42,233 nt of DNA. It comes from a virus (Duplodnaviria > Caudoviricetes). The stretch spans positions 1 through 42,233 of IMG/VR virus record IMGVR_UViG_3300005613_000136; one strand, given 5' to 3'. Position 1 is the first letter of the stretch, and each line of letters opens with the position of its first letter. The notes below the pieces were generated by a model. That model made no database searches. It had not been told where the DNA came from and worked only from the letters and a program-made list of their open reading frames with translations. This document shows, piece by piece, positions 1-42,233 of the stretch. Position numbers and translations under genes: made by a program.

Positions 1-123
1 TGCTGTGACCAAAGGTTCGTACAATGAACCAATCTATATCCTCTCAAGAGAGAACCCAGAGAACTCATGGCAATGGAAAGCAGGCTACGAGCAGTGTCAG
101 AAGGACATCGCAGACAAACTAAA
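1..123. repeat. Terminal direct repeat, left copy (circular assembly overlap)
   Basis: Identical to 42111-42233; an ORF reads in frame across the join. Confidence 0.97.
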
Positions 124-137
124 GGACTAGCGTATGC
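113..137 (+). repeat. Gene-junction repeat family B (GACAAACTAAAGGACTAGCGTATGC)
   Basis: 25 bp identical to 285-309; encodes DKLKD-stop plus the next ATG. Confidence 0.95.
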
Positions 138-196
138 CGATGGATTTCTCTGTAGGACTGGTAATTGGATTTATTCTAGCTAAAATATTCAAATAA
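134..196 (+). CDS. 20-aa hydrophobic micropeptide (MPMDFSVGLVIGFILAKIFK)
   Basis: Hand-translated; starts inside the junction repeat and stops 1 nt before the next ATG. Confidence 0.55.
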   Translation: MPMDFSVGLVIGFILAKIFK

Positions 197-197
197 T

Positions 198-302
198 ATG
201 AACATCAAAAAATGTGCCAAGTGCAAGATGGTTCTCTTAAGAGAGAATGAAAACGCTACTTTCATTGTGTGTGAGTGTGAGACCGACAAACTAAAGGACT
301 AG
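198..302 (+). CDS. 34-aa Cys-rich miniprotein ending DKLKD
   Basis: Hand-translated MNIKKCAKCK...VCECETDKLKD; TAAtATG coupling upstream; ends in the junction repeat. Confidence 0.7.
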   Translation: MNIKKCAKCKMVLLRENENATFIVCECETDKLKD

Positions 303-309
303 CGTATGC
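285..309 (+). repeat. Gene-junction repeat family B
   Basis: Identical to 113-137. Confidence 0.95.
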
Positions 310-512
310 TCGAATTCTTATTTGGTTGGTTCTTGGGAGAAACTTTGGCGACACCAGAAACCTATGTCATCTCAAGGCCTGAAAAACAAAAAGAGTGTGA
401 TTACTGTTCATCTGCTGTCGATGCACGCCTTGGGTCGGGCTTGCTGTGTGGTCACCATTACCACACACTTGGACTTTACAAAGAAACAGATCCTAAACTC
501 TTTGAGAAATAA
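306..512 (+). CDS. Hypothetical protein with CxxC...CxxH (possible Zn finger)
   Basis: ATG inside the junction repeat; CDYC...LCGHHY. Confidence 0.75.
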   Translation: MLEFLFGWFLGETLATPETYVISRPEKQKECDYCSSAVDARLGSGLLCGHHYHTLGLYKETDPKLFEK

Positions 513-530
513 TCTATAAAGGACTAGCTA

Positions 531-647
531 ATGAGCAAACAAGACAGAGAGCGCCGCAACAATGACCTACGCATCTTTAAGTGGACTATTGCAGTAGGCA
601 TCCTACTCGCTGCGGCACTGAGTTATTTAACAAGAGGATGGATATGA
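531..647 (+). CDS. 38-aa single-pass membrane micropeptide
   Basis: Hand-translated MSKQDRERRNNDLRIFKWTIAVGILLAAALSYLTRGWI; follows degenerate repeat TAAAGGACTAGC; ATGA overlap with the next gene. Confidence 0.7.
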   Translation: MSKQDRERRNNDLRIFKWTIAVGILLAAALSYLTRGWI

Positions 648-883
648 GTTACTACCACGCCCAAACAAAAGAAGAGGCTAGAAGGTTGATGCAGACGTAT
701 GCGGTCTTCACTCGTCAATTAAGCCTAGAATTTGTGCCGGATGTTGCTTCTTGGTGGGAGACCTACGGAGAAAATACGTGTTACCAACTCTCTTCAAAAC
801 ACGCATTGATTCTGATACACAACAAAAACCTGCTTAAAAACAAGAATATTTATTCATGGAACGAATATCCTCAAGAGGAATGA
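644..883 (+). CDS. Hypothetical protein
   Basis: Start moved from 581 to the ATGA-overlap ATG at 644 (MSYYHAQ...). Confidence 0.75.
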   Translation: MSYYHAQTKEEARRLMQTYAVFTRQLSLEFVPDVASWWETYGENTCYQLSSKHALILIHNKNLLKNKNIYSWNEYPQEE

Positions 884-884
884 T

Positions 885-1100
885 ATGAACGAAGCATTTA
901 AGAAGGATCGTTGCAGCGTGGGAGATGTGATTGTGTCTCCTGCAGGAGAAGCTGTAATTCTTGAGGTCGGTGAGACCAGCTTCTTGAGTAGTTATTTTGG
1001 TGAGTTTGATGAAGCATGGGCGTGGCACACTTACGCAGAAGCAAAGAAGTTCGGCTGGATATTCAAAGGCCAAGACACCTGTAACACATGTGGAAAGTGA
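885..1100 (+). CDS. Hypothetical protein ending TCNTCGK
   Basis: TGAtATG coupling; ends in junction repeat family C. Confidence 0.8.
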   Translation: MNEAFKKDRCSVGDVIVSPAGEAVILEVGETSFLSSYFGEFDEAWAWHTYAEAKKFGWIFKGQDTCNTCGK

Positions 1101-1105
1101 TATGA
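1072..1105 (+). repeat. Gene-junction repeat family C
   Basis: 30/34 identity to 1352-1385; encodes TCNxCxK-stop plus tATGA. Confidence 0.9.
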
Positions 1106-1380
1106 ACAAAGAATTTGAGTTCCAAACTCAAGAAGCAAAACATGGCTTTACTCCAGAACAGAGGAGCATCTATTGGTTCGGTGTGATTGATGCTCTGACT
1201 CAACGAGAAGCATTTGAAAAACAAGTGACGTCTTTGTACGAGAGTGAGTACGGCATTCCTTGCATAGACATGTTGCGTCAGTGGCTTAACGAAAGACCAA
1301 GCGGGCCTGTTTCAACAAAAGACTTAGAACATTGGCTCAAGCCATTGATTGAAGAGACCTGTAACGCATGTGAGAAGTGA
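1102..1380 (+). CDS. Hypothetical protein ending TCNACEK
   Basis: Start moved to the ATG at 1102 (TGAtATG). Confidence 0.8.
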   Translation: MNKEFEFQTQEAKHGFTPEQRSIYWFGVIDALTQREAFEKQVTSLYESEYGIPCIDMLRQWLNERPSGPVSTKDLEHWLKPLIEETCNACEK

Positions 1381-1385
1381 TATGA
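1352..1385 (+). repeat. Gene-junction repeat family C
   Basis: 30/34 identity to 1072-1105. Confidence 0.9.
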
Positions 1386-1627
1386 CGGACGACCAATCAA
1401 AATTTGCAGAGATTTTCAGTATATATCACGGAAAAGACATGTTTGTCGTGACTTTTTCGAGTAGCTATTTCAGTAACCAATTCGAATCAGAGGATATAAT
1501 TGCAAACATTGCAATAACACCCAATACGGCAGCGTTATTATTAAGAGAGCTCGAAAGTCGTATTTCTGATTTTGAAGAGAAGTATGGAAAGATTGATAGG
1601 CATGTGTGCTGTAAATGTGGAGAATAG
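1382..1627 (+). CDS. Hypothetical protein ending CCKCGE
   Basis: Start moved to the ATG at 1382; degenerate family-C C-terminus. Confidence 0.8.
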   Translation: MTDDQSKFAEIFSIYHGKDMFVVTFSSSYFSNQFESEDIIANIAITPNTAALLLRELESRISDFEEKYGKIDRHVCCKCGE

Positions 1628-1852: not shown

Positions 1853-1857
1853 ACGTT

Positions 1858-2008
1858 CGTACCCATGAAGCTGTCTTTAAGACAGCCGTCTTTGCCAGAA
1901 ATGGCAACACCAAAAATCTCAAAGCTACTTCTTCAGGGTAGCTTCATGGGTATATGTTTCCATACATATTTGCATCAAAGTAACCATTCGCATTGCGGTG
2001 GTTATTTT
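1858..2008 (+). ncRNA. Putative structured small RNA 2 (four-way junction)
   Basis: 13-bp perfect closing stem 1860-1872/1940-1952, three internal hairpins, terminator-like hairpin 1977-2008. Confidence 0.55.
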
Positions 2009-2016
2009 GCTATACT
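2008..2016 (+). promoter_or_regulatory. Extended -10 promoter
   Basis: TGcTATACT; TATACTGTAA is shared with 1630-1639. Confidence 0.6.
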
Positions 2017-2021
2017 GTAAC

Positions 2022-2184
2022 TGTAAGGATCTTGACTTGTAGGCGAGCGACGAAAGGGGATCATGCAACAAAATAAGCCATGATCGCTAAGGCGGACTGT
2101 CTGCTTCGCATACTTTCTACGTCCGCCTATAGGTCAAGAGACATATTTCAGGTTAAGAAGTGGTCATTTTATGATCGCTTTTTT
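2022..2184 (+). ncRNA. Putative structured small RNA 3
   Basis: 16-bp stem 2030-2045/2124-2139 with 2 G-U pairs; internal GATCATG/CATGATC and GGCGGAC/GTCCGCC stems. Confidence 0.55.
2158..2184 (+). terminator. Intrinsic terminator
   Basis: AAGTGGTCAT-ttt-ATGATCGCTT followed by a T-run. Confidence 0.65.
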
Positions 2185-2209
2185 GATTGTATGTGTGTGT
2201 ATATCTTTA

Positions 2210-2238
2210 TTGCTCACATACCTCACATGTGATAGCAT
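2210..2238 (+). promoter_or_regulatory. Promoter with probable operator
   Basis: TTGCTC-N17-TAGCAT; contains CTCACAT twice and the palindrome TCACATGTGA (2223-2232). Confidence 0.6.
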
Positions 2239-16031: not shown

Positions 16032-18080
16032 ATGGCACGAATTAAAGAACAATTAGCAGCTAATATCATCGGACACTGGGACTTTCGAACCGGTAGTTTT
16101 AAGGATCAGACTGGTGGAGGGAGTGATGGATCTCCAACAAATGATCCTGTCTGGACACGAAGTAGGAGAGGACGTGCTAGTGCATTCAATGGAATTGACC
16201 AAGTTGTTGATTTAGGCACGAATACATTAGGCCCTCTAGCTGAGGGAGCTTCTGGAATCACAATGGTTGTCACTGCCTGTCCACAAAATGTTGAGGCTGG
16301 ATCAATCCCAATGCTTTTTAGTGAAACGATTGGTGTCGCAAGCAATGGTTTCAATATGCGATTGGATCAGATTGATTCAGATACTTACAATCTTCGTGTA
16401 GGTGGTCGATCACAAGCTGGGGATGCGTATCAATCACATCAATCTACGGCTGTATATAATTACGGAGAAGAACATCACTTCGTAGGAGTTTTGGACTATG
16501 CAAACGATATGGTCCATCTCTATGTAGATGGAGTTCTTGAAGGAAGTACGGCAGCGACTTTCGGATCTACTACATATAATCAAGGATCACCTACACGAAC
16601 TGATGCCATTGGAGGAGCATCATCTAGTGCGAACTTAACAAGTAGTTTGATGAATGAAGTATTGGTATTGGATACTCCAATTAGTGCTGCACAAGCCTCT
16701 CAGCTTTATCAAGAACATCTTGAAGAGCTTGCATTAACTTCTGTGCCACAATCTTCACGCGTTGCTGTTCCAGAACCAGTAAAAACTGACAACATCGCCT
16801 TTCAACTTACCGGTGATACCGTTGATGGTGTATTTAAAAATATCTACGGAATAGAAACTGCGAGCGTCGATGCTGGCGTAGATCTGGTACCGAGCTCTAT
16901 TTACAACACTCTTGTTCCAGAATTCTCTGGCTCTGATAATGAGGACATCAATTTCGGGGATGTGACGTTCATGGATGGTGATACTCAGGCTACTATTCTA
17001 ATGACTCTCGAACCAACTGCATTAGGAACTTTCGATGGTTTCTATACAAAAGGTACAAGTGTTTCATCACGTGTCCGTTTTGGATTAGGTGGAACTGGTG
17101 CGGGAACAGCAAGTGACATCTTGCTGAATATTGCCAATGGTGCAGCTTCAAGTTCGTATACAACAAATGAGCCACTTCAAGCTGGATGCAAAGCACGTCT
17201 TGCCATTGTTTTTAATGGAGGTGGTGCAACAGATGATGACAAACTCAAACTTTATGTTAATGGCACGCTACAAACTTTGACTCATTCAGTAAGTCCAGGA
17301 GCATCTATCCCAAATGTTTCTACAGATTTTCTCATTGGAAATGATAATGGATCTACCGCACGTGTATTCAATGGAATGATCTCAGATGTTCAGTACCACA
17401 GTGGAGAAAATTATACGCAAGCCGATGTCACACGAGACTATAAGAATCTCTTCGGTGCAACGAACCTAAACCTCTTAGGAGAAGATTGGAATATTTCTAC
17501 AACAAATGAAACAGGAGGTTCCCTAAGTAATTCTCCATTCATTGTTGATACAGGTTCATGGAAGATTGAGGACTCAACTACATATCCCGGACAGAAACGT
17601 ATCAATTGTAAATCAACAGGAAACGCATACATTTCAAGCGCTCAGGCCTTTGGTACGTGGGACTTCACTGTCTTTAAAGAGGATGCTAGTGAGACCCAAA
17701 TCGTCTTCATTGCTGATACGATTGGAACAACAGGAGCATCGGGTCAGGATGGATACTTGTTTGAACTTCAAGCTGATGAGGCGATTGAATTCGCGCGTGT
17801 AACCAACGGAAGTACAAGTACACTATTCAGAACAAATGCAGGACACGTAAGTGCGGAGACCTCCTTGAGATTCCGTATCACACGAGATTCCTCTGGAGAA
17901 TTCACACTCTACGAATTCGTCAGTGGCGCTTGGCAACTAATTGCAGATGGGGCAACTGGAAGTAATCCAGTAACAGAAACAACTCACGTCTCTAGCAGCT
18001 ACATGAACCTGGATTTCCCGACTGGCGACGAGATCGAAAACATCAAACTCTGGCCAACTATTCAAGATCCAACTGCCTAA
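16032..18080 (+). CDS. Multi-LamG domain protein
   Basis: GHWDF, HHFVGVLD...HLYVDG and KLYVNG...FNGMISDV motifs. Confidence 0.85.
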   Translation: MARIKEQLAANIIGHWDFRTGSFKDQTGGGSDGSPTNDPVWTRSRRGRASAFNGIDQVVDLGTNTLGPLAEGASGITMVVTACPQNVEAGSIPMLFSETIGVASNGFNMRLDQIDSDTYNLRVGGRSQAGDAYQSHQSTAVYNYGEEHHFVGVLDYANDMVHLYVDGVLEGSTAATFGSTTYNQGSPTRTDAIGGASSSANLTSSLMNEVLVLDTPISAAQASQLYQEHLEELALTSVPQSSRVAVPEPVKTDNIAFQLTGDTVDGVFKNIYGIETASVDAGVDLVPSSIYNTLVPEFSGSDNEDINFGDVTFMDGDTQATILMTLEPTALGTFDGFYTKGTSVSSRVRFGLGGTGAGTASDILLNIANGAASSSYTTNEPLQAGCKARLAIVFNGGGATDDDKLKLYVNGTLQTLTHSVSPGASIPNVSTDFLIGNDNGSTARVFNGMISDVQYHSGENYTQADVTRDYKNLFGATNLNLLGEDWNISTTNETGGSLSNSPFIVDTGSWKIEDSTTYPGQKRINCKSTGNAYISSAQAFGTWDFTVFKEDASETQIVFIADTIGTTGASGQDGYLFELQADEAIEFARVTNGSTSTLFRTNAGHVSAETSLRFRITRDSSGEFTLYEFVSGAWQLIADGATGSNPVTETTHVSSSYMNLDFPTGDEIENIKLWPTIQDPTA

Positions 18081-27985: not shown

Positions 27986-30900
27986 ATGTCACTTGATGTA
28001 GCACGATCAGTTCTGCAAAAAGGCCAAGCAAAACAGGCTGGCCAAGTTATTAAAGTTGCAAAAACAACTGAGACACCACAGCAGGCTGTGGAACAGGTGG
28101 CAGAAACAGAGGGTATCAAAATTACACAACCACCAATCGTCTCTCCTTTCTTCACACCAGAGGCTAGTAAGGTCACCCCGATTGAGGGCGGCCGTGTCTT
28201 TACGTTTGAAGATGGGGGTGAATTTGCTCTCACTGAAGAGGGAAAGCCGTTTATTACACCTCGTAGAGTCAGCACACAGACGAAGAACGAATTGCGTGAA
28301 GGTACTTTTGCAGATACCTCACTTGAAGTGGACCATGTAATCAGTAAGGCAATCGGAGGTACGGACACACGTAAAAATTTACAGACACTCAAGTCTACAA
28401 AGACATTGTCTCAGACAGTTCAGGATTTTATTACAGGAAAAGATCGTCTTCCTGGGCAGTATGAACCCCGCAACCGACAAGAGGGGAAGGTCATTGTTGA
28501 ACAGAAGGCAATCAATAAATACAAGAGGGGCGACATCACACTGCCAGCGGCAAGAGAGGCTATCCGTAACTGGGACAAACCAGAGGTGGTCAACTTCTTG
28601 TTAGAAGAACAGGTGGTATCTCCAGATTTTGATACAGTAAATCTTACTGAAACAATCAGTCCTGAGCTCCGGCGTGGTATTCAGGAAGTGGGTGGTAGCG
28701 CAGCAGAAAAAGCCAAGGAGTTCATTGTTCGTCGCTCAAAAGAAGAGATTGCAAAGTCACCAACTCAAAGGCTTGAAGAAGCTCTCACAGTTCCTGTAGA
28801 TATTGTGAAGGGAACCGTTGATCTTCTCGCAAAGGTCCCTGGATTCATGGCCCGACAAATCACTTCCGGTGCCTTCAGCTTGATTGAATCAACCACAGAT
28901 CTTGAGCCAGAGTTCAAACCAGAAGGCCCTATTGAAGAGGCTTTCTTTGGGCAAGAGCCAATCGTTTCATTCCGCCGTCGTGTAGATGAATCAAAAGATA
29001 TCATCTCTGCTTTGGGTGCAGATGAAGATGAAGCAGGGCGACTTGCAATAATTGGTGTTGGTCTCAGCACTATGCTCGACTTGCCACCACTGCCGGGTAA
29101 AGCCGGTAAGGCAAAGGTTACTTCCTTGGTTAAGAATGAGTTGAAAGACCAAATTGGTGAGAAACTTGCAAAGGATATTGCCGAAGATGTTTCTCGTCGA
29201 GCAGATGAATTGATTACAATTCGTGATCCAATCAAACGACAAAGGGAAGTTGAGAATTTGTTAGATGGATATAACCGTGTAGTTCTCAAAGACTCCACAA
29301 AAGAGATTCCGAATATTGATCTGGCCTCAACGTCTGTGCGTAATAAGACCAGTATCCCTTTGGATTCTGCCAAGACCGCTGATAAGGTTACTGATATTAA
29401 GTCTGGTGCTCGAAGTTCCTTCCGAGAGAAGGAGCCTGGATTTGAGTTGTCAGAAGAGACTAAGTTCCAAAAACTACAGCGGAATCTTCAAGACAAGATG
29501 AATCGACTCGGCTTTGTTCAGAAGACTATTGAAGAAACAAAAGGCGTGAAACTTGCAGATGATGTAGATGCCTACTTGCAAGCTGAGTTATTTATTGGAC
29601 GCGCGAAACAACGCTTGGACAACTTTGACCGAACGACACTTGAGCCACTACTCAAGACCATGAAAGATGCTGACGTCTCGCTAGACGAGTTCGGAACATA
29701 CCTTTATGCCAAGCATGCTCCTGAACGTAATGCAAAGATCTTCGATGAATTCGGCAAGCTCAATGGTAGTGGAATGACAGATGACGAGGCTAAGGCAATT
29801 CTCAAAGGATTCCAGGACTCAGGGAAACTTCGCAACATGGACGAGCTACAGAAGCTCTTCCAGAAGAACATCACAAATCAACGAATCAATATTCTTCGTG
29901 AAGCAGGTATTCTTTCTACTGACTCAGCAAATACCTTACGAACAAGCTATAACAACTACGCCCCATTGAAGGGACGAGCTGATCTTGATGACATGCGCCT
30001 TCGCGGACAGGGCTTTAGTTTGTCTGGAAAAGATATTAAACGAGCTAAGGGACGTGAATCACAAGCCCAGAACAACCCATTCACACAGGCTGTACTTGAT
30101 TTCGAGGACTCTGCTATCCGTGCGGAGAAGAATAAGGTTGGTCAAACACTCCTTAAACTCGCAGAAGAAAACCCAAACCCTAAAGTGTGGGAGGTGGAGA
30201 ACCTCAAGTTCACCCCAGTATTCGACAAGTCCGGTGAGATCCAATACTTCGATCCTAAGTTCAAGTTCGCTGACAATGTTGTACAGGTATATGAGGACGG
30301 TAAGTTGAAGTTGATTACCATTCATGACAAGGCTCTTGCTGAGGCAATGAAGAACATGGGTACCGAACGAGGTATCCGATTCTTACAGAATGTAAATAAC
30401 TTCTTGCGTTCAGTTAACACCACAGTGAACCCAGAATTCCTCATCACTAACTTTGAACGTGATATTCAGACAGCCCTTATTCACTTGGGCGGAGAACAAA
30501 GCGCAGAGATGGCAGGTCAGGTGCTCAAAGATGTGCCTTCAGCAATGAAGGGTGTTTGGAATAACGTACGAAAGGGTGACATTGATAGCGAGTGGGCGGC
30601 TTTGTATCAGGAAATGAAGGAACAGGGTGGTCGTGTTGGGTTCTTTGACTCTAAGGGAATCGAAGATAAGACAAACGATTTGCTAAAGAAGATCCGAAAC
30701 TATCAGGCTGATAACACGAAAGAAAAGATGGCTTCATTCCTCAATGGAGTCGGTGAGTATGTCGAGGCATCAAACGAAGCAGTAGAAAGTGCAACGCGCT
30801 TGTCTGCTTACAAGGCCGCAAAAGATGCCGGGATGAGTAAAGAACGGGCTGCACAACTCGCGAAGAATCTAACAATCAACTTTAACAAAAAAGGAAACTG

Positions 30901-32002
30901 GGGTTCTGCCCTCAATTCCTTGTACTTGTTTGCCAATGCGGGTATTCAAGGTTCAACGAAGATGATTTCTGCAATGGTGAAATCACCTAAGATCAGGAAG
31001 ATTGCTGCTGGTATCGTGGCAACATCATACGGTCTCAATGAGATGAACCATGCAATCAATGCAGAAGAGTATAAAAAGATTGATGATTCAATCAAGGATC
31101 GCAACTACATCTTCATGATGCCGAACGGTAACTATATTAAGGTACCGCTGCCTTATGGTTACAACATTTTGAAAGTGATGGGAGATGTGATGTTTGAGAC
31201 CACGCGTGGTCAGAAGACACCTACTGATTCAATGAAGCGTTTGGCTATGGCCTCAAATGAGGCGTTTAACCCTCTCAGTAGTGGTAGCTTCAATCAGACA
31301 ATTTCACCTACGTTCTTTGATCCATTCGTTCAAGCGGCAGAAAATAAGAACTGGTTCGGTGGACCAATCAAGCCAGAGAATCTTCCTTTCGGACCACAGA
31401 GAAAGGAGAGCGATCTCTACTTTGGTTCTGTTCGACCTACGAGCAAGAAGATTACTAATTGGATAAACAAAGCTACGGGTGGTAATGATCTTGAGGCTGG
31501 ATTTGCTGATGTATCACCTGAACTTCTCGATCACTTCCTCGACTTCACCACTGGTGGAGCCGGACGTTTTGTGGCAAACACGTTTGAGTCAGGTACTGGT
31601 CTGCTGAATAAGGATTTCCCAGATATCAAAAACATGCCGTTCGTTCGAAAACTGATCGGCACGCCTTCTGAGTATTATGAATCACGAATCATCAACCAGA
31701 CACTGAAAGATCGTGAGATTAGATTGTTCGATAAGAAAGAAGAAGAAGAGTTCAAGTCATCAATTCGACATGAACTTCTTGAAGGTAACATCACACGTGA
31801 TGAAGCTAAAACAGCAGTACGGCAGTATCTCGGTGGTCAATCAAAGGTGAAGGCCAATCGCGCGTTCGAGCAAATGCAACAACTACCACCAGATCAACGT
31901 GCTGATGCAGTTAAAGATCTTGATACGAAATCGTTAGAGCAGCTTAAAAAGCTGATTTCTTCCAGCCTACAAGAGCAAGCAGAGCAAGACCAACAACAAT
32001 AA
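27986..32002 (+). CDS. Large ejection / polyvalent protein with N-terminal HNH motif and C-terminal LPD38-like domain
   Basis: EVDHVISKAIGGTDTRKNLQTL; YIKVPLPYGY, ENKNWFGGPI, SPELLDHFL..TGGAG. Confidence 0.75.
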   Translation: MSLDVARSVLQKGQAKQAGQVIKVAKTTETPQQAVEQVAETEGIKITQPPIVSPFFTPEASKVTPIEGGRVFTFEDGGEFALTEEGKPFITPRRVSTQTKNELREGTFADTSLEVDHVISKAIGGTDTRKNLQTLKSTKTLSQTVQDFITGKDRLPGQYEPRNRQEGKVIVEQKAINKYKRGDITLPAAREAIRNWDKPEVVNFLLEEQVVSPDFDTVNLTETISPELRRGIQEVGGSAAEKAKEFIVRRSKEEIAKSPTQRLEEALTVPVDIVKGTVDLLAKVPGFMARQITSGAFSLIESTTDLEPEFKPEGPIEEAFFGQEPIVSFRRRVDESKDIISALGADEDEAGRLAIIGVGLSTMLDLPPLPGKAGKAKVTSLVKNELKDQIGEKLAKDIAEDVSRRADELITIRDPIKRQREVENLLDGYNRVVLKDSTKEIPNIDLASTSVRNKTSIPLDSAKTADKVTDIKSGARSSFREKEPGFELSEETKFQKLQRNLQDKMNRLGFVQKTIEETKGVKLADDVDAYLQAELFIGRAKQRLDNFDRTTLEPLLKTMKDADVSLDEFGTYLYAKHAPERNAKIFDEFGKLNGSGMTDDEAKAILKGFQDSGKLRNMDELQKLFQKNITNQRINILREAGILSTDSANTLRTSYNNYAPLKGRADLDDMRLRGQGFSLSGKDIKRAKGRESQAQNNPFTQAVLDFEDSAIRAEKNKVGQTLLKLAEENPNPKVWEVENLKFTPVFDKSGEIQYFDPKFKFADNVVQVYEDGKLKLITIHDKALAEAMKNMGTERGIRFLQNVNNFLRSVNTTVNPEFLITNFERDIQTALIHLGGEQSAEMAGQVLKDVPSAMKGVWNNVRKGDIDSEWAALYQEMKEQGGRVGFFDSKGIEDKTNDLLKKIRNYQADNTKEKMASFLNGVGEYVEASNEAVESATRLSAYKAAKDAGMSKERAAQLAKNLTINFNKKGNWGSALNSLYLFANAGIQGSTKMISAMVKSPKIRKIAAGIVATSYGLNEMNHAINAEEYKKIDDSIKDRNYIFMMPNGNYIKVPLPYGYNILKVMGDVMFETTRGQKTPTDSMKRLAMASNEAFNPLSSGSFNQTISPTFFDPFVQAAENKNWFGGPIKPENLPFGPQRKESDLYFGSVRPTSKKITNWINKATGGNDLEAGFADVSPELLDHFLDFTTGGAGRFVANTFESGTGLLNKDFPDIKNMPFVRKLIGTPSEYYESRIINQTLKDREIRLFDKKEEEEFKSSIRHELLEGNITRDEAKTAVRQYLGGQSKVKANRAFEQMQQLPPDQRADAVKDLDTKSLEQLKKLISSSLQEQAEQDQQQ

Positions 32003-32135
32003 CTGCCCCCACAGGGGTGAAGTAAGCATTCATCAGCACCACACCGATTGTGATTAACGGTGCTACAATGAGACCTACGATTAGTACGAGGCTGCCTAGC
32101 AATAGGTAGGCGCCAATGACTTTGAGTATTTCCAT
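31944..32135 (-). CDS. Small two-TM membrane protein
   Basis: Almost entirely hydrophobic, TATG start; last gene of the leftward operon. Confidence 0.7.
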   Translation of the reverse strand: MEILKVIGAYLLLGSLVLIVGLIVAPLITIGVVLMNAYFTPVGAVIVVGLALLALVGWKKSAF

Positions 32136-32144
32136 AGAATTAAA

Positions 32145-32291
32145 TTAGCTAAATAGTTTGATAAGTAGATGGATCACGATATCGACGAACAGTAAAATGA
32201 TCTTGATCGAAACACCAAGAACAAGGATGCCAATACCTAGAGCTGCTAGATTCACTAGACATGTACCTGCTGAATTGAGTTGATGTTTCAT
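32145..32291 (-). CDS. 48-aa membrane micropeptide
   Basis: Hand-translated MKHQLNSAGTCLVNLAALGIGILVLGVSIKIILLFVDIVIHLLIKLFS. Confidence 0.65.
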   Translation of the reverse strand: MKHQLNSAGTCLVNLAALGIGILVLGVSIKIILLFVDIVIHLLIKLFS

Positions 32292-32317
32292 ATAATTATT
32301 TTTGACAGGCCAATCTA

Positions 32318-32647
32318 TCACGGATTGGTCTTTTTGTCAATGTATTCAGGATACTTACCTTCTAAGTAAGCTTTCTCCTTGAGCCAAAGCGGCTTGGATT
32401 TAGGGTATTTATTGAGGTTATCTTCTGTGGACTGCTGGTATGCAATCATCCTGTTCAACTCCTTCTTTAGTCCTTTGCCTAGATGGTGATACCAACAAAG
32501 TATCACACAATTCCATGCCTCTTCATTCTTACGACCTAGAGCGTGCTCGATCGTCATCCTTCCCGAGCATGTTCCTTCTTGTCTTCTGGCACACAGTTGT
32601 GGTCTGGACAGCACCTCCTCCAGAACCTTTCTTTTCATTGCTTTCAT
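32318..32647 (-). CDS. HNH-like / NinG-like zinc nuclease-fold protein
   Basis: C...C....IEHALG...WNCVILCWYHH. Confidence 0.6.
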   Translation of the reverse strand: MKAMKRKVLEEVLSRPQLCARRQEGTCSGRMTIEHALGRKNEEAWNCVILCWYHHLGKGLKKELNRMIAYQQSTEDNLNKYPKSKPLWLKEKAYLEGKYPEYIDKKTNP

Positions 32648-32768
32648 ACTGAACTCTGAACACGATTATGTAAATCAATCTAACGTGCGCACTCCCAATG
32701 TGCGCAGACAGTATCGCTGTACTGCCCATGAGTTGTAACAAAGAACGATATCGTGTTCAGGATTCAGC
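32648..32768 (-). ncRNA. Multibranch RNA structure abutting a start codon
   Basis: 11-bp perfect stem 32656-32666/32750-32760 extended by G-U pairs on the - strand; inner CAGTA/TACTG and TGCGCAC/GTGCGCA hairpins. Confidence 0.5.
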
Positions 32769-32771
32769 AGG

Positions 32772-32888
32772 CTACATGTTGAGTGTAACCGCTTGGTTCA
32801 GAAGTAGTGCCGTACCAACAAGTAGTACGCCAACAATCATGAACATGATGAGAATCGGGCCGAAGCAGCCTTTGAATAGGTTTTTCAT
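32772..32888 (-). CDS. 38-aa membrane micropeptide
   Basis: Hand-translated MKNLFKGCFGPILIMFMIVGVLLVGTALLLNQAVTLNM; ATGA overlap with the upstream gene. Confidence 0.7.
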   Translation of the reverse strand: MKNLFKGCFGPILIMFMIVGVLLVGTALLLNQAVTLNM

Positions 32889-33298
32889 ACTTCAATGTGT
32901 TTGTTTTCAATGAGCCAGATAAGGGCTTTAGCGCGGGCGTTGGCTTCTGTGTCGGATTCATGCACCGGGGTCGTTGCGTCATAACCGAAGTACCAAACAA
33001 CTCTCCCGTCATCCATTTTGTGTTTACCCGTATCCCAACCTAAAAGACGGTCAAACTCATTAACGAATATCTCTGGCAGCATCTCTCCTAGCTCGGCTAC
33101 CGTGAAGGCGGAGATCTTATTATCTGGTACGAATGAATCGGCTTCGTAAGACGTGTTCATTGGAGAAATGTAGTTACATTCTAGAACATACGGACGGTCT
33201 CCATATTTTACCAACTCCCACACACTCTCTTGTTTCACACCTAACGCTTTCAATTGTTTTGCTAGCTCAAGTGAGCAGACTTGTTGTTCGATGTTCAT
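32885..33298 (-). CDS. Conserved-type phage hypothetical protein
   Basis: QVCSLELAKQLKALG...SAFTVAELGEMLP...TEANARAKALIWL pattern. Confidence 0.85.
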   Translation of the reverse strand: MNIEQQVCSLELAKQLKALGVKQESVWELVKYGDRPYVLECNYISPMNTSYEADSFVPDNKISAFTVAELGEMLPEIFVNEFDRLLGWDTGKHKMDDGRVVWYFGYDATTPVHESDTEANARAKALIWLIENKHIEV

Positions 33299-33403
33299 AT
33301 ATTTTCACTTCCTCAATATAGTGTGTAGAAAATCCGCTCTTATAGATGTTAGCTATCTCCTCCTCGTGTTGGGGACATGGTGTCTCAGAACAAAAATGTA
33401 TGT

Positions 33404-33760
33404 TCATACCTTCGATTCATTGTATTGGTTGAGAGCAATCCATTGCTTACACAAAGGACAATCAGGTTCAGACGTATCACACTTTGGTAAACATTCTTCA
33501 ACCACCTGAACAAGCTCACGTGCAGCGAGGAGTTCTTTGTAGATTGCTGGAAAAGTGTTGTGGAGTCTGGCAAATATGTGTGTATTTATTTCTGTGTCAA
33601 ACACCGCAATCTCTGCATGACCACGGACTTTTGTAATGCGCCATGTCTTGTCATTGGTGCGATACACAACCTCTACTGGCCCTTTTACACCTTCTTCATA
33701 AATATTTTTAAGGTGCGCCAACTGTTCGTCGGGTAGGAATGTTAAGTGTTTGTTCTTCAT
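33404..33760 (-). CDS. Hypothetical protein
   Basis: TATG start; C-terminal C.....CPLC. Confidence 0.75.
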   Translation of the reverse strand: MKNKHLTFLPDEQLAHLKNIYEEGVKGPVEVVYRTNDKTWRITKVRGHAEIAVFDTEINTHIFARLHNTFPAIYKELLAARELVQVVEECLPKCDTSEPDCPLCKQWIALNQYNESKV

Positions 33761-34888: not shown

Positions 34889-35653
34889 TTACTCCCCTAA
34901 ATGATTTCTAAGAGCTTCCTTGATTGTTCTCTTGCTCCATTTCTTTTCGTCGATTTCTACAAGGTCTTCTGGCTCATTTACGTTTATACCTGTGATCTCT
35001 TCAAAGATTGCTGCATCGAACCCCGGAAGACTGAGGAACCGCTCATGGTCTTTTGGATTTTCTTTCCACCAAATACGACACGCCTCTTTGAAGTCGAGCG
35101 TCTTTAGATAACCTCCCATTGTTTCCCATCCCTTTACATTCTTTTTCTCCTCGTCTGTCATATCTTCTTTATTCACCCAACGATTCAAAGGGATGTCAGC
35201 ATAAATATTATGTTTTTCGTAAAACTCTTCAACCGTCATGTCTAATTCTTTGTTAAACAAACGCATCTTTGAACTGTCGGTGTTGAATGATCCTGAGTTC
35301 CGGTCTCCTGAGTTCCAGTGTCCTGAGTTCCAGTCTCCTGAGTTCCAGTGTCCTGAGTTCCAGTCTCCTGAGTTCCGGTCTCCTGAGTTCCAGTCTCCTG
35401 AGTTCCAGTCTCCTGAGTTCCAGTCTCCTGAGTTCCGGTCTCCTGAGTTCCAGTCTCCTGAGTTCCAGTGTCCTGAGTTCCAGTCTCCTGAGTTCCGGTC
35501 TCCTGAGTTCCGGTCTCCTGAGTTCCAGTGTCCTGAGTTCCGGTCTCCTGAGTTCCAGTGTCCTGAGTTCCGGTCTCCTGAGTTCCAGTCTCCTGAGTTC
35601 CAGTGTCCTGAGTTCCAGTCTCCTGAGTTCCAGTCTCCTGTATTTTTTGTCAT
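34889..35653 (-). CDS. Pentapeptide (NSGxx) repeat protein
   Basis: 23 N(S/T)G(D/H)(W/R) units plus C-terminal GGYLK...LPGFDAAIFEEITGI domain; start moved to MTKNTG. Confidence 0.9.
   Translation of the reverse strand: MTKNTGDWNSGDWNSGHWNSGDWNSGDRNSGHWNSGDRNSGHWNSGDRNSGDRNSGDWNSGHWNSGDWNSGDRNSGDWNSGDWNSGDWNSGDRNSGDWNSGHWNSGDWNSGHWNSGDRNSGSFNTDSSKMRLFNKELDMTVEEFYEKHNIYADIPLNRWVNKEDMTDEEKKNVKGWETMGGYLKTLDFKEACRIWWKENPKDHERFLSLPGFDAAIFEEITGINVNEPEDLVEIDEKKWSKRTIKEALRNHLGE
35300..35644 (-). repeat. 15-bp tandem repeat, 23 units
   Basis: AACTCAGGA(G/C)AC(T/C)GG. Confidence 0.97.
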
Positions 35654-35664
35654 ATGTTTATATA

Positions 35665-35811
35665 TTACGTTCCTAACATTATACCGCGCATAGCCTCGGC
35701 ACACACTCTCGGTAGCGTGAAGTGCTGTACAACAGCGTATCCAAGGCAGATTACTGACGTTGCGTAGGCTAGGTGATGGCGTTTAATTGGTGGCTTTACC
35801 TCCTTTGGCAT
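35665..35811 (-). CDS. 48-aa peptide with a hydrophobic segment
   Basis: Start moved to the TGAtATG at 35811 (MPKEVK...). Confidence 0.6.
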   Translation of the reverse strand: MPKEVKPPIKRHHLAYATSVICLGYAVVQHFTLPRVCAEAMRGIMLGT

Positions 35812-36819: not shown

Positions 36820-37209
36820 TCATGTAGGGTCTGGAATCACGATACCCATCTCGGACGCTTTCACGATGATCCGTTCGAGGTATTCATTAAATTCCTTCGT
36901 TGTTAGCTGCTTGGTGCTAGGCACTACCTCATACTCTTTTCCTTCAAAGACTAGGACCTTTCGTGGCAAGAACATCTTTTTAAAGATTTCGTGCAACTCT
37001 TCTGCCGTATGCCCCACCTCCTTTGAGATGAGGCTCATGACAATGCCCCAGTAGTACGCATTCTGTCTCGTGCTTCTATCCTTCCCCCATTTCTTCATGG
37101 TGAGATTGTAGAAGCCGTCTTGCTGCGTCTTTGTTACCTCGATGAACCGTTCTTTGTTCATCATCTTGGCCTCGCCGTCCTCAATTTTTAGGACGAAGTT
37201 TGCAATCAT
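36820..37209 (-). CDS. ninB: NinB-like recombination protein
   Basis: RSTRQNAYYWG...LHEIFK...STKQLTTKEFNEYLERI. Confidence 0.85.
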   Translation of the reverse strand: MIANFVLKIEDGEAKMMNKERFIEVTKTQQDGFYNLTMKKWGKDRSTRQNAYYWGIVMSLISKEVGHTAEELHEIFKKMFLPRKVLVFEGKEYEVVPSTKQLTTKEFNEYLERIIVKASEMGIVIPDPT

Positions 37210-37434: not shown

Positions 37435-38052
37435 TTAAAAGGCTAGTTCCTCAATAAGTTTATTAATCTCGTCGAGCGTCTGTTCTTGGTAGTCTCGGTA
37501 AAACTCAATCTGAGTCTCAACCTCTACCCTGTTTATTTCATGGATGAACATCGGCTTAACTGTAATGCGCGGATCAAAGAATACGAAGTAAAGTTTATCT
37601 AAGTCCGGATTCACAATGAAGTATTGCATGGCCTGCGCTTCGTACGCGTTATCTAACTCCCGTTCGAAATACATTTGCAGGTGTCTTGATGACGATAGGC
37701 ACTTGATTTCCACAGCTTCCGTGTATTTGCCGTCATTGAGAATCAATCCGTCAGGTGATAGTGCAATGTTGGGATTGTTCTCACTGATGCAGAACCCTAC
37801 TTCCTCTACCTTTTTTGAAGTCTCGGCCTCAAAGAGTGCGCGTGCTTCTGCTTCCAGTCGTGAACCACGGTCCATCGCAGTTTCCTCTGAGACCTCTTGT
37901 AGACCAAGACGTTCAGCCATCAACTCGTAGAACCCTAACTTTCGCTTTGACCCACGACGGGTAATGATATCGTTCAGTTTTGATCCAGTGATCTTTCCCT
38001 GCCTCAAGGAGAACCATTCATCTGTTCTCTGTTCTACGTTGATTGTTTTCAT
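37435..38052 (-). CDS. YqaJ-like viral recombinase / lambda-type exonuclease
   Basis: QRTDEWFSLRQGKITGS, MDRGSRLE, SPDGL, EIKC, Q...Y motifs. Confidence 0.93.
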   Translation of the reverse strand: MKTINVEQRTDEWFSLRQGKITGSKLNDIITRRGSKRKLGFYELMAERLGLQEVSEETAMDRGSRLEAEARALFEAETSKKVEEVGFCISENNPNIALSPDGLILNDGKYTEAVEIKCLSSSRHLQMYFERELDNAYEAQAMQYFIVNPDLDKLYFVFFDPRITVKPMFIHEINRVEVETQIEFYRDYQEQTLDEINKLIEELAF

Positions 38053-38555
38053 ACTTCCTCGCTTAGTTTATCTTTCAATTCGTTTTTAGCTGCGATCACT
38101 TCTGGCTGCGCCATCACACCACCGAGTGAAGTGAATAGTGTCTTCAATTCTTCTAGGCTCTCTGCTCCACTTAGTTTGCTGATAGCATTGTTTACTTCCT
38201 CCATACGCTTCTCTTCCCGATACGCTGTGTATTCCTCCATCTCTTCCATAGAAGCAACCTCTCCGCTTGCGAGATATCCGAGTAGTGCTAGTGCGCGACC
38301 CACAGCAATCGTTTCCAATTTCTCAAAGGCTTTGTCTCCCTTGCTTGGTCCAATTGCGTGGCCTGTCGCATCTGCCGAATCTGCGTTAGACTTATCTCGT
38401 AGGATGTATGCTTCAAAAAGAATGTTTCCATCTTCCAACATCTTCGGTGTTGTCTTAATAGAGCTTCGTGGGTTTTCTTCACGGAACGCTTTGAGTCGCT
38501 TTGGGACTCGTGCGTACTTGTTCCCCTTTAGATCAATTGTGTTCACTTTAGTCAT
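38049..38555 (-). CDS. Putative single-strand annealing protein
   Basis: KGNKYARV..RL..F, ATGHA, EKLETIAVGRALALLG; immediately upstream of the exonuclease; start moved to MTKVN. Confidence 0.65.
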   Translation of the reverse strand: MTKVNTIDLKGNKYARVPKRLKAFREENPRSSIKTTPKMLEDGNILFEAYILRDKSNADSADATGHAIGPSKGDKAFEKLETIAVGRALALLGYLASGEVASMEEMEEYTAYREEKRMEEVNNAISKLSGAESLEELKTLFTSLGGVMAQPEVIAAKNELKDKLSEEV

Positions 38556-38724
38556 ATTTTTTGCAGTGTGAATAACAAGGCGCTCCTCCACATTCCTCAC
38601 AAACATGTAAGCCGACCTTCTTGTAGTAAGGCTGAGCGTTTTGCGTGTTTCGGCTAAGGTCTCCCTCCATTTCCGTTTCGTTGCGTTGCATGCAGTTTAC
38701 GCAAACACAGTTAGGACAACTCAT
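38548..38724 (-). CDS. Cys-rich miniprotein
   Basis: CPNCVCVNC...CEECGGAPCYSHC; ATGA-overlap start. Confidence 0.6.
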   Translation of the reverse strand: MSCPNCVCVNCMQRNETEMEGDLSRNTQNAQPYYKKVGLHVCEECGGAPCYSHCKKYD

Positions 38725-38866: not shown

Positions 38867-38873
38867 CCCATAC

Positions 38874-38882
38874 TTATCCACA
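38874..38882 (+). promoter_or_regulatory. DnaA box
   Basis: TTATCCACA perfect consensus. Confidence 0.65.
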
Positions 38883-39678: not shown

Positions 39679-39687
39679 TGTGGATAA
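39679..39687 (-). promoter_or_regulatory. DnaA box
   Basis: TGTGGATAA, reverse complement of TTATCCACA. Confidence 0.65.
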
Positions 39688-39723
39688 GTAGACCTATTGC
39701 GGGTCTATTTTTATGTATACACA

Positions 39724-40203: not shown

Positions 40204-40315
40204 TAGATGCCAAGAGCCAACAAGCGTCACTTACAAAGATTCAGATTTAGATATGGATATGTGTGGAACCTGTTACACATATGTTCAGTGGGGCAAAACA
40301 TATGACAACAAATAA
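40193..40315 (+). CDS. 40-aa Zn-finger miniprotein
   Basis: Hand-translated MKCDRCQEPTSVTYKDSDLDMDMCGTCYTYVQWGKTYDNK. Confidence 0.6.
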   Translation: MKCDRCQEPTSVTYKDSDLDMDMCGTCYTYVQWGKTYDNK

Positions 40316-41159
40316 AGAAAAAGATTATACCTCAGAACGTAGAATTGCTTTGCTGGCCGGCGAGGTGTGTGACGTTTTATTTAATGTAAAAGATTACAGG
40401 TATATAGGGTTTGCCCACCTAGACTTAGATGATATTGAAGTAACTTTTCATGCAACTGCATCCTCTTATCCCGGACAGGCTGCGTATGTGCCGGTAAACC
40501 ATTGGTTTGAACTCACAGAAAATGGCGAATGGGCGACTTACAAAGAGATTCCAGTTTTTATAACATTCATCAAGCTGGAAATAATAGCAGAAAAAGATGA
40601 CACATTAGAATTTGTTGTCTCAAAAAGAGACAGACCTTTCAAGTTTGCTGACGAATCTTGTTTTAATGACTGTAAAATAAGCGATGTAGGGTTTGAAACA
40701 ATGGAAGAAATGCAAGAGGCTTGTGAACATGAATGGCGCAAGTTTTCTGTGAGAGCATCCTCTGAAGATCAAATGCAGTTCGAAGTAGAGCCAAAGAATT
40801 ACTTTGGAACAGATCCTGATACTGCCAACGAGATCCGATTTACTTGGGATAAGTGTGAGCGTTGTTATGAAACAAGAAACGTCAGTTGTAAGAGTTATGA
40901 CATGGGATTTTCTTGGGAAGAATTTTCCTACCAAAAAGCTCTACAGGAAGAAAGGAAGAGAAGGAGTGTGGATTGTAAACATGAAGAATTTGAATATAAA
41001 AGATTGTTAAGGTGCTACACGACTGTAAGAGATGCAAACGACCCAGATAACGAAAGATATTATGTAGACGGTCAGCCGTGCGATGATTTAAACGCTGAAC
41101 TGGACAAAGTTCAATGCACCAACTGCGGAAAGTTTTATAAACACACAGAAGCTAAGTAG
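40302..41159 (+). CDS. Hypothetical protein with C-terminal CxH...CxxC module
   Basis: DCKHEE...VQCTNCGK; start moved to MTTNK; ends in junction repeat A. Confidence 0.75.
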   Translation: MTTNKEKDYTSERRIALLAGEVCDVLFNVKDYRYIGFAHLDLDDIEVTFHATASSYPGQAAYVPVNHWFELTENGEWATYKEIPVFITFIKLEIIAEKDDTLEFVVSKRDRPFKFADESCFNDCKISDVGFETMEEMQEACEHEWRKFSVRASSEDQMQFEVEPKNYFGTDPDTANEIRFTWDKCERCYETRNVSCKSYDMGFSWEEFSYQKALQEERKRRSVDCKHEEFEYKRLLRCYTTVRDANDPDNERYYVDGQPCDDLNAELDKVQCTNCGKFYKHTEAK

Positions 41160-41165
41160 TATGGA
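41115..41165 (+). repeat. Gene-junction repeat family A, copy 1
   Basis: TGCACCAACTGC-N26-TAAGTAGTATGGA; ungapped match to copies 2 and 3. Confidence 0.92.
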
Positions 41166-41346
41166 GAATAAACTTTTAGAAAAACTAATACTTCGAGCAG
41201 AAGAGTTGAACAAAGAGCACTTCTTAAATAATGGCAGAAGCTCGCTTCCAGTCGTCATGACAGAGCCTAATGTTTACTACAATATTCAATTCGTTCTCGA
41301 GGCTTTAATTGAACATCTTGATCAAGAGTATGACAAACAACTGTGA
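41161..41346 (+). CDS. Hypothetical protein
   Basis: Starts within repeat A. Confidence 0.75.
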   Translation: MENKLLEKLILRAEELNKEHFLNNGRSSLPVVMTEPNVYYNIQFVLEALIEHLDQEYDKQL

Positions 41347-41695
41347 TCACGTATGGGAAGTGGCTGCTGTCTTTGATCCTCCTCCAGCCACATGTGTGAA
41401 GTGCGGAAAGGTTGAAGAGATTGAGTGCAAGCATGAGGAACAAGAGCTTATTTGGAATGCAGGGGTACGTGTAGAAGACTCAAATTCTCCTGGGGTATAT
41501 GAACACCACCAGAGATGTATGGACTGTAAAGAGATTCTTCATCGTAAACTAGGAGAGGAGGTTGGCAAAGAGAAGATGGAGTGTAAGCATGAGGAGCATC
41601 CAGTGTACTACCATCTGCATGGTAAAACTTGGCTGGAACTCCAGCACATCTGCACCAACTGCTACAAGATTATTAAACGAGGAGAGGTTAAGTAG
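41330..41695 (+). CDS. Protein of three tandem CxH...CxxC modules
   Basis: CDH..CVKC, CKH..CMDC, CKH..CTNC; start moved to MTNNCDH. Confidence 0.75.
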   Translation: MTNNCDHVWEVAAVFDPPPATCVKCGKVEEIECKHEEQELIWNAGVRVEDSNSPGVYEHHQRCMDCKEILHRKLGEEVGKEKMECKHEEHPVYYHLHGKTWLELQHICTNCYKIIKRGEVK

Positions 41696-41701
41696 TATGG
41701 A
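41651..41701 (+). repeat. Gene-junction repeat family A, copy 2
   Basis: Same 51-nt ungapped pattern. Confidence 0.92.
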
Positions 41702-41816
41702 TAACTGTGAGCATGAGTGGAGCAGGCTTCATGTAAGTGTGTTTAACGACAGACAAGAGCACATCATGCAATGCACCAACTGCGCAGAGATTTATAAACG
41801 TATAGAGGTTAAGTAG
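41697..41816 (+). CDS. 39-aa single CxH...CxxC module protein
   Basis: MDNCEHEW...QCTNCAEIYKRIEVK; bounded by repeat A on both sides. Confidence 0.75.
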   Translation: MDNCEHEWSRLHVSVFNDRQEHIMQCTNCAEIYKRIEVK

Positions 41817-41822
41817 TATGGA
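41772..41822 (+). repeat. Gene-junction repeat family A, copy 3
   Basis: Same 51-nt ungapped pattern. Confidence 0.92.
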
Positions 41823-42036
41823 CCTAGATAAACTGAGAGAGACCATGCAGGTTTACGAACTTGATGGTGTAGAGGTTATGGCTGTTCATGATTTTGCACC
41901 AATTGTAAAAGCCGTAGAGGAGTACAAGAAGGAGGTGCTGGAGATGTTGCCGGATGAGAAGGAGCCTCAGTACGGAACTTGGTGGAGAGCTTATAACGCC
42001 TGCCTCCAAGAGATCAAAGACAAACTAAAGGACTAA
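41818..42036 (+). CDS. Hypothetical protein ending DKLKD
   Basis: Starts in repeat A, ends in repeat B. Confidence 0.8.
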   Translation: MDLDKLRETMQVYELDGVEVMAVHDFAPIVKAVEEYKKEVLEMLPDEKEPQYGTWWRAYNACLQEIKDKLKD

Positions 42037-42042
42037 AGTATG
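42019..42042 (+). repeat. Gene-junction repeat family B
   Basis: GACAAACTAAAGGACTAaaGTATG, 22/24 identity to 113-136. Confidence 0.9.
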
Positions 42043-42233
42043 GAATACAAACAAATTTCATGCGCAGATGAGGTCATCAAAGAGTTGAAGAAAGGATGGC
42101 ATGTTGTCAGTGCTGTGACCAAAGGTTCGTACAATGAACCAATCTATATCCTCTCAAGAGAGAACCCAGAGAACTCATGGCAATGGAAAGCAGGCTACGA
42201 GCAGTGTCAGAAGGACATCGCAGACAAACTAAA
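42040..42233 (+). CDS. 66-aa protein wrapping the genome junction (stop at 128-130), ending DKLKD
   Basis: Hand-translated MEYKQISCADEV...WKAGYEQCQKDIADKLKD. Confidence 0.8.
   Translation, partial: MEYKQISCADEVIKELKKGWHVVSAVTKGSYNEPIYILSRENPENSWQWKAGYEQCQKDIADKL
42111..42233. repeat. Terminal direct repeat, right copy
   Basis: Identical to 1-123. Confidence 0.97.

What the first reader, a model, noticed from the sequence alone, without database searches (positions are those of the whole stretch)
40302..42233. Cassette-like array of small genes joined by three successive families of stop/start-spanning repeats (continues through 1-1627)
Seen: in the rightward accessory operon (40302 across the junction to 1627, about 13 small ORFs), otherwise unrelated genes end in the same short DNA block, which covers their last codons, the stop and the next ATG. 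The families occur in runs: A,A,A (41115, 41651, 41772), B,B,B plus degenerate b (42019, 113, 285, 517), then C,C plus degenerate c (1072, 1352, about 1601). Each inter-repeat segment holds one to three complete ORFs. Known: lambdoid boundary sequences and T4-type PeSL elements promote modular exchange, and phage annealase/exonuclease systems recombine short imperfect homologies; this genome encodes such a set. Inference: the repeats are crossover points that let whole genes be inserted, excised or swapped while preserving translational coupling, giving an integrase-free gene-cassette array whose recombination sites are hidden inside coding sequence.
Basis: partly seen in the sequence, partly recalled or inferred. 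Interest (0 to 1): 0.85.

Follow-up and report, generated by a model that had tools for sequence, protein, structure and literature searches.

The report
Phage genes chained by shared ends
In an uncultured phage, neighbouring small accessory genes with different middles end (and sometimes begin) in the same short DNA blocks spanning the stop and next start codon; these are likely scars of recombination between short shared gene ends, as already shown in other phages, not a dedicated cassette system.

Summary
The repeats are real and far above chance: A (3 copies, 54 nt), B (3, 24-33 nt) and C (2, 34 nt) cover the last codons, stop and next ATG; b is a weak 12-nt non-coding match; c is unsupported as DNA. 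Two weaker junction repeats (D, E) extend the chain. They are copied DNA, do not fold, and I found no integrase. Gene 885-1100 looks like a chimaera: similarity to 44 homologues ends where C begins. The A genes are partly paralogous zinc modules. No variant of this phage was found, so exchange at A/B/C is untested. The anatomy is known: mycobacteriophages Island3/Brujita (in print), and T4 versus PP01, where I verified a 485-nt repeat-to-repeat loss leaving one hybrid copy. Unrelated junction repeats of 50 nt or more occur in 4 of 25 terminase relatives. Against a required role: five gene indels between two other relatives had no flanking repeats. Best reading: recombination between short shared gene ends, likely by the phage's annealase-like/YqaJ genes, leaves reusable junction duplicates. 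Earlier scan notes report similar arrays in T4-like phages. Known mechanism, unusually dense chain.

The parts
41112..41165 (+). Repeat A1: last 15 codons of gene 40302-41159 (CxxC half of a zinc module), stop, ATG of 41161
41648..41701 (+). Repeat A2: end of gene 41330-41695, ATG of 41697
41769..41822 (+). Repeat A3: end of gene 41697-41816, ATG of 41818
42010..42042 (+). Repeat B1: end of gene 41818-42036 (tail DKLKD), ATG of 42040
104..137 (+). Repeat B2: end of gene 42040-130 (across the join), ATG of 134; its first part also appears at 42214-42233 in the terminal overlap
285..309 (+). Repeat B3: end of gene 198-302, ATG of 306; 25/25 to B2
517..528 (+). b: 12-nt non-coding remnant of B before the ATG at 531 (weak)
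631..647 (+). D1: junction 531-647/644-883; 15/17 to D2 (at chance level on its own)
872..902 (+). D2 (872-888) overlapping E1 (881-902): junction 644-883/885-1100 and first six codons of gene 885
1072..1119 (+). C1 (1072-1105) overlapping E2 (1098-1119): tail of gene 885-1100, stop, head of gene 1102
1352..1385 (+). C2: tail of gene 1102-1380, stop, ATG of 1382
885..1100 (+). 71-aa likely chimaeric gene: core (residues about 8-63) from a widespread family, head in E, tail in C
41418..41442 (+). Internal zinc-module head (CKHEE), 22/25 to 41574-41598
41574..41598 (+). Second internal zinc-module head in gene 41330-41695
40302..42233 (+). First half of the array: genes at 40302, 41161, 41330, 41697, 41818, 42040
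1..1627 (+). Second half of the array: genes at 134, 198, 306, 531, 644, 885, 1102, 1382 (1-123 duplicates 42111-42233)
38049..38606 (-). Candidate single-strand annealase (weak Rad52/Sak-like fold match; inconclusive)
37435..38052 (-). YqaJ-like exonuclease
   Evidence: PF09588, E 1e-16
36820..37209 (-). NinB/Orf recombination mediator
   Evidence: phrog_72, E 2e-20

Best explanation
The A, B and C blocks are copied DNA spanning gene ends and next starts, and are likely scars of homologous recombination between short gene ends shared by diverged alleles of this accessory operon, probably catalysed by the phage's own annealase-like and YqaJ exonuclease genes. Shown: the copies, their position, their DNA-level ancestry and the absence of hairpins. 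Inferred: an unequal or single crossover in a 20-60-nt shared tail/stop/start adds a gene or gene core and leaves the junction duplicated. The product survives because length, stop and coupling are untouched. New gains need homology to an existing junction, so like repeats cluster in runs (A,A,A, B,B,B, then D/E/C). The copies would remain usable for clean loss of the enclosed genes. No dedicated recombinase or site is needed.
For: Repeats far above chance; synonymous identity 33 of 37. 8 of 8 simulated crossovers keep ORF length and coupling. Gene 885-1100: residues 57, 58, 61, 62, 63 are identical in 38, 40, 35, 19, 18 of 44 homologues, residues 64-70 in 0-5; 0 of 44 have a CxxC tail; C starts in codon 63; 39 of 44 have 31 or more residues before G13 where this gene has 12, the first six inside repeat E. 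Same anatomy with a proven empty allele: T4 has a 30-nt stop/start repeat 485 nt apart, and PP01 lacks that block and keeps one hybrid copy; Island3 genes 67/68 share a 60-bp 3' end and Brujita keeps one recombinant copy (PMC3029335 section 13). Unrelated junction repeats in relatives: G785, the closest by terminase (49%), has a chain of heads, YopX tails and junctions with a chimaeric ORF; G799 has three copies; G787 and G788 one long pair each; L101 has two or more pairs. YqaJ and NinB are present.
Against: No variant of this phage: the only other holder is identical, so no event at A/B/C is observed. No empty allele was found for G785 or L101. In the one informative pair of relatives (L048/L058, about 85-93% identical), 5 of 5 whole-gene indels lie at or near gene boundaries but show no flanking repeat above background (3-6/20 upstream, 7-9/20 downstream; background 5.9 and 8.9), so repeats are not needed for junction-precise exchange. 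21 of 25 relatives show no junction repeat of 50 nt or more. The family of gene 885 has variable tails anyway, so its break point is also a natural domain boundary. The annealase assignment is weak (pLDDT 55; Sak Z 6.5, rmsd 3.6, 88 aligned, tied with dsRNA-binding domains).
Confidence: 0.58

Rival explanations
1. Tandem duplication of whole small genes, followed by fast divergence or internal replacement of the middles; the repeats are the least-diverged remains of paralogues, not crossover points for incoming genes.
For: The A run is built of repeated CxH...CxxC modules sharing heads and tails (40722/41706 24/32; 41418/41574 22/25). Genes 885 and 1102 share both head (E) and tail (C). Genes 41818 and 42040 share a 21-residue end. 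The genes after B2 and B3 start with similar hydrophobic stretches (read by eye).
Against: The middles show no significant similarity while the ends are 76-100% identical. The core of gene 885 belongs to a widespread family with other heads and tails, so it came from elsewhere; replacing a middle still needs recombination at the ends.
Confidence: 0.24
2. The blocks are kept for function: a shared C-terminal peptide tag or zinc half-site, or a start-associated translation signal like the SAS motifs of Cluster K mycobacteriophages.
For: Tails encode CxxC (A, C) or DKLKD (B) in frame. B and b carry a 5-nt Shine-Dalgarno-like core 7 nt before the ATG, A2 and A3 one at 8-12 nt, in a genome where most starts lack one (consensus recalled). 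Earlier scan notes favoured a tag reading for T4 e.2-e.5 (unchecked).
Against: Three unrelated families of 2-3 copies, not one motif of 11-19 copies as for SAS (PMC3203893). Synonymous positions are as conserved as residues. A1 and C lack a Shine-Dalgarno-like core. No copy was found elsewhere in the genome or in IMG/VR.
Confidence: 0.12
3. A dedicated site-specific cassette system (integron- or PeSL-like) with its own sites.
For: Small genes separated by repeats in an ordered array.
Against: No hairpin in 16 of 16 strands folded (z from -0.58 to +1.12); no Rfam match; no integrase among 60 ORFs scanned with PHROGs and Pfam; no single consensus; promoter-like sites at chance level (10 against 10.5).
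Confidence: 0.04
4. Chance or assembly artefact.
For: The array crosses the contig ends; b, c and D are weak singly.
Against: Statistics; second assembly identical across the join; copies differ from each other; the reading frames are open.
Confidence: 0.02

Closest known systems
Mycobacteriophage Island3 genes 67/68 versus Brujita (PMC3029335, section 13 read)
   Same: Two neighbouring genes share a 50-60-bp 3' end (18 C-terminal residues), the rest unrelated; the authors propose general recombination at this homology, akin to boundary sequences.
   Different: One pair with a proven empty allele; here three families plus weaker ones in a chain, no empty allele found.
T4 e.3 to nudE region versus phage PP01 (tested here; lead from earlier scan notes)
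   Same: A 30-nt repeat (24/30) covers last codons, stop and next ATG; PP01 has lost the 485 nt between the copies and keeps one hybrid copy.
   Different: Cultured T4-like phage, one tail family, deletion proven; unrelated sequence.
Linker/boundary sequences of lambdoid phages (known here only through the Discussion of PMC2839356 and passages of PMC3029335; originals not read)
   Same: Short conserved homology at module borders used by general recombination.
   Different: Defined as shared between genomes at homologous positions; here the copies are repeated within one genome and lie in coding ends, and no second genome shares them.
PeSL cassettes of T4-type phages RB49/phi1 (PMC2839356, abstract and Discussion read)
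   Same: Integrase-free gain and loss of ORFans by recombination between repeats in a hyperplastic region.
   Different: PeSLs are intergenic promoter plus stem-loop units with mini-circles shown; A/B/C are coding and do not fold, and the array has no excess of promoter-like sites.
Start-associated sequences (SAS) of Cluster K mycobacteriophages and Cluster EF Microbacterium phages (PMC3203893, PMC7302621; passages read)
   Same: Repeats next to start codons of non-structural genes, sometimes covering the upstream stop.
   Different: One 13-bp ribosome-binding-site-like motif in 10-19 copies, conserved across phages; here several longer local families that are mostly upstream coding sequence.

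Membership tests
Shared-gene-end recombination (Island3/Brujita, T4/PP01 type) | Neighbouring genes with different bodies share their 3' end at DNA level | tested here: met
   (clearest for B3 and C; A partly paralogous)
Shared-gene-end recombination (Island3/Brujita, T4/PP01 type) | Crossover within the repeat keeps frame, stop and coupling | tested here: met
   8 of 8 simulated
Shared-gene-end recombination (Island3/Brujita, T4/PP01 type) | A relative lacks the enclosed block and keeps one hybrid copy | tested here: inconclusive
   no variant found; no run listed
Shared-gene-end recombination (Island3/Brujita, T4/PP01 type) | A general recombination system is available | tested here: inconclusive
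   YqaJ and NinB met; annealase only a weak fold match
PeSL cassettes | Repeat holds a stem-loop | tested here: not met
PeSL cassettes | Repeat holds a sigma-70-like promoter and is intergenic | tested here: not met
PeSL cassettes | Excised mini-circles | not testable with these tools
   no run listed
Integron attC arrays | Sites fold into single-strand hairpins (feature recalled) | tested here: not met
Integron attC arrays | Integron integrase (may be absent in CALINs; recalled) | tested here: not met
   none among 60 ORFs scanned
SAS motifs | One short motif in 10-19 copies before many non-structural genes | tested here: not met
   2-3 copies per family, none outside the array
Lambdoid boundary sequences | Same short sequence at the same module border in several mosaic genomes | tested here: inconclusive
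   no related genome shares the array

The most novel reading that the evidence does not exclude
The array is a self-extending, integrase-free cassette chain: every gain duplicates a coding junction, the new copy becomes the landing site for the next gene or gene core, and cores are swapped between resident heads and tails to mint chimaeric small proteins; this runs in many Patescibacteria-type phages with lineage-specific repeats (window, G785, G799, L101).
Probability: 0.25. Interest if true: 0.65.

Novelty: new variant of a known kind. Interest (0 to 1): 0.38.

Why it matters
How phages gain small accessory genes exactly at gene borders is an old question: short boundary homology versus illegitimate joins plus selection. 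This genome shows both heads and tails of small genes acting as likely homology, in a dense chain of successive families, with one gene that looks assembled from a foreign core and resident ends. It gives a compact test case for annealase-driven exchange in a phage group that probably infects Patescibacteria. The mechanism itself is already documented, and no event is proven here.

Tried and rejected
Search for variants: the B pattern in IMG/VR gave 7 loci, all chance; the C pattern 0 (21); a degenerate A pattern 5 loci, one chance site (56, 57); the neighbouring 154-aa gene no relative; the B pattern in metagenomes 1 contig, identical; cultured phages nothing useful; own assembly only itself; sequencing runs: none was listed. 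Genes 41818, 1102 and 40302 have no homologue beyond themselves in the word-indexed search. Cluster members of 10 array proteins gave only the same phage, including two frameshifted fragments. The profile of gene 885 found no IMG/VR locus (47), none in 6 and in 23 relative records, and convincing hits in only 2 Patescibacteria-group genomes, G007 and G210; the G210 prophage shows no repeat scoring 16 or more. Empty alleles for G785 and L101 (124) were not found. My first reading of L048/L058 as 'short repeats flank the indels' (notebook) did not survive a background comparison. Other pairs (L032/L047, G004/G005, L031/L046) were uninformative. A junction-pair test on 85 terminase loci gave 0 of 8,534 pairs at 22/30 or more, but missed repeats with one non-coding copy. 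attC and PeSL: rejected. Diversity-generating retroelement: differences between copies are not adenine-specific (read) and no reverse transcriptase was found. Foldseek gave no match at E 0.001 for the annealase candidate; the PDB sequence search nothing useful. Atlas hits for the 39-aa gene were unnamed clusters.

Full report
Setting. The window is a complete circular 42.1-kb phage record with a 123-nt terminal overlap. It has a terminase at 3735, an LPD38-bearing protein at 27986, a YqaJ-like exonuclease (37435-38052, minus) and NinB (36820-37209, minus); I found no integrase among 60 ORFs scanned. Most gene starts lack a Shine-Dalgarno-like core (consensus recalled). The family of gene 885 occurs on a phage-like contig of a Patescibacteria-group MAG (record title) and in a prophage of another genome drawn from that phylum, so a Patescibacteria host is likely but inferred. 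A second contig, L018, is identical over 12,553 nt across the join.

Observation. The array 40302 -> 1627 holds 14 ORFs of 20-285 aa. The top 8 of 1,711 pre-ATG window pairs are all A, B, b or C pairs; 990 non-array pairs reach at most 16/30. Eight repeat pairs score 16 or more, against 0.05 in 20 shuffles and 0-1 in 9 of 10 other windows of equal length. b is a 12-nt non-coding match; c is not supported as DNA. Two further junction repeats fill the gap between b and C: D (15/17, not significant alone) and E (19/22, covering the first codons of genes 885 and 1102). Neighbouring junctions therefore resemble each other step by step along the operon.

What the repeats are. They are copied DNA: 33 of 37 degenerate codons for identical residues are the same codon, 17.8 expected (inflated because pairs were chosen by DNA similarity). 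None of 16 strands folds better than shuffles, Rfam finds nothing, and promoter-like sites in the array are at chance level. They are not attC sites or PeSLs. No family occurs outside the array or, by exact or degenerate pattern, in other IMG/VR phages.

Are the genes unrelated? Partly. The three A genes are built of CxH...CxxC modules that share heads as well as tails; the 39-aa gene at 41697 is one such module. Genes 41818 and 42040 share a 21-residue end at 52% identity; gene 198 shares only the last five residues. Genes 885 and 1102 share head (E) and tail (C) around unrelated middles. Gene 885 is the best test. A search of 1.84 billion representatives gave 44 homologues. Conservation runs to residue 63 (G57 38/44, W58 40/44, K61 35/44, G62 19/44, Q63 18/44) and falls to 0-5/44 at residues 64-70; none has a CxxC tail; 39 of 44 carry a longer N-terminus. 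Repeat C begins in codon 63. The gene looks like a foreign core between resident ends. The caveat is that this family has several alternative tails, so residue 63 is also its natural boundary.

Do such repeats mediate exchange? For this phage it could not be tested: no variant genome, protein variant or sequencing run was listed. In simulation, 8 of 8 crossovers between copies leave the upstream ORF's length and coupling intact. In known phages the same anatomy does give clean exchange. PMC3029335 (passages and section 13 read) reports that Island3 genes 67 and 68 share a 60-bp 3' end and that Brujita keeps one recombinant copy without gene 68. Following earlier scan notes, I checked T4: a 30-nt stop/start repeat (24/30) lies 485 nt apart near e.3 and nudE; PP01 lacks that block and keeps one hybrid copy.

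Relatives. A terminase profile gave 80 IMG/VR loci at 35-53% identity; none shares the array. I took 25 of the longer records whole or nearly so (three only to 20 kb). Four of 25 have a junction repeat of 50 nt or more: G785 (76 nt), G787 (dropped by the GC filter, seen), G799 (64) and G788 (58). G785, the closest by terminase, carries a chain of its own at 157-2374: one head three times, a YopX tail twice, a 24-nt junction twice and a 116-nt head twice, with an ORF made of one gene's head and another's YopX half. It reads like two diverged alleles of one operon segment stacked in tandem (inference). G799 has three copies of a 46-64-nt junction block. L101 has two unrelated ORFs ending in the same nine-residue tail (26/27 nt) and further pairs. 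No empty allele was found for G785 or L101; none was sought for G787, G788 or G799 beyond the all-against-all comparisons. Against a required role: in L048/L058, 5 of 5 whole-gene indels lie at or near gene borders with no flanking similarity above background, and 21 of 25 records show no long junction repeat.

Mechanism. Most likely (0.58), an unequal or single crossover in a short shared gene end brings in a gene or core and duplicates the junction; selection keeps products with intact stop and coupling; later gains reuse existing junctions, giving runs of like repeats. The enzymes are likely the phage's YqaJ exonuclease with the product of 38049-38606, whose model matches Sak, Mgm101 and RAD52 only weakly (Z 6.1-6.5, tied with dsRNA-binding domains; pLDDT 55). 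Shown: repeats, ancestry, frame preservation, break in homology at C. Inferred: direction of events, enzymes, present activity. Rivals: tandem duplication with divergence (0.24, strongest for A), selected tag or translation signal (0.12), dedicated site-specific system (0.04), artefact (0.02).

Literature. Nine searches of the open-access library listed no paper on chains of stop/start-spanning repeats in this phage group; subscription papers, including the original boundary-sequence work, were not searchable. Read: PMC2839356 (abstract, Discussion), PMC3203893 (passages), PMC3029335 (passages, section 13), PMC7302621 (passages). No supplement was opened. The scan has noted similar arrays in T4-like phages (AI notes, one claim partly checked here).

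Verdict. A real feature and a fair first reading, but the mechanism is described, and exchange at these sites is unproven. What is new is the density and the chain of successive families with chimaeric genes, recurring with different sequences in related phages. New variant of a known kind; interest 0.38.

Noticed in passing
window 1628-2238: Non-coding stretch after the array with three strong hairpins (1701-1774, 1860-1952, 2030-2139; RNA folding z -5.5, -5.7, -6.3, 0 of 200 shuffles each), each preceded by a -10-like hexamer (read by eye). Possible small structured RNAs; no Rfam match.
   Followed up: partly
G785:C1:157-2374 (L115): Chained junction-repeat array with duplicated YopX genes, a Dam-like methyltransferase between repeats and a chimaeric ORF at 1194-1457.
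   Followed up: partly
G799, reverse strand 32072-33575: A 46-64-nt block encoding a 16-residue mini-ORF recurs three times, plus a partial fourth, between accessory genes.
   Followed up: partly
L101 2364-3605: An RtcB tRNA-ligase gene in a phage-like Patescibacteria contig is flanked by 23-nt direct repeats holding a ribosome-binding site.
   Followed up: partly
L074 5359-5933 and L067 (reverse) 16294-17876: Gene blocks bounded by 58-nt and 74-nt repeats; one copy is a gene head or tail, the other a non-coding remnant.
   Followed up: partly
window 34889-35704 (minus): Pentapeptide-repeat gene with a 15-nt tandem array of over 20 units.
   Followed up: no
window 27986-32002: 1,338-aa protein with an LPD38 domain and a weak HNH match, a probable ejected polyvalent protein.
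   Followed up: no
homologues P0004-P0047 of gene 885: One conserved core carries several interchangeable C-terminal tails (three patterns in 14, 7 and 4 of 44) and varied N-terminal domains.
   Followed up: partly
window 38871-38882 and 39679-39690: Perfect 12-nt inverted pair resembling a DnaA box (recalled) in the region between the divergent operons; possible origin.
   Followed up: no
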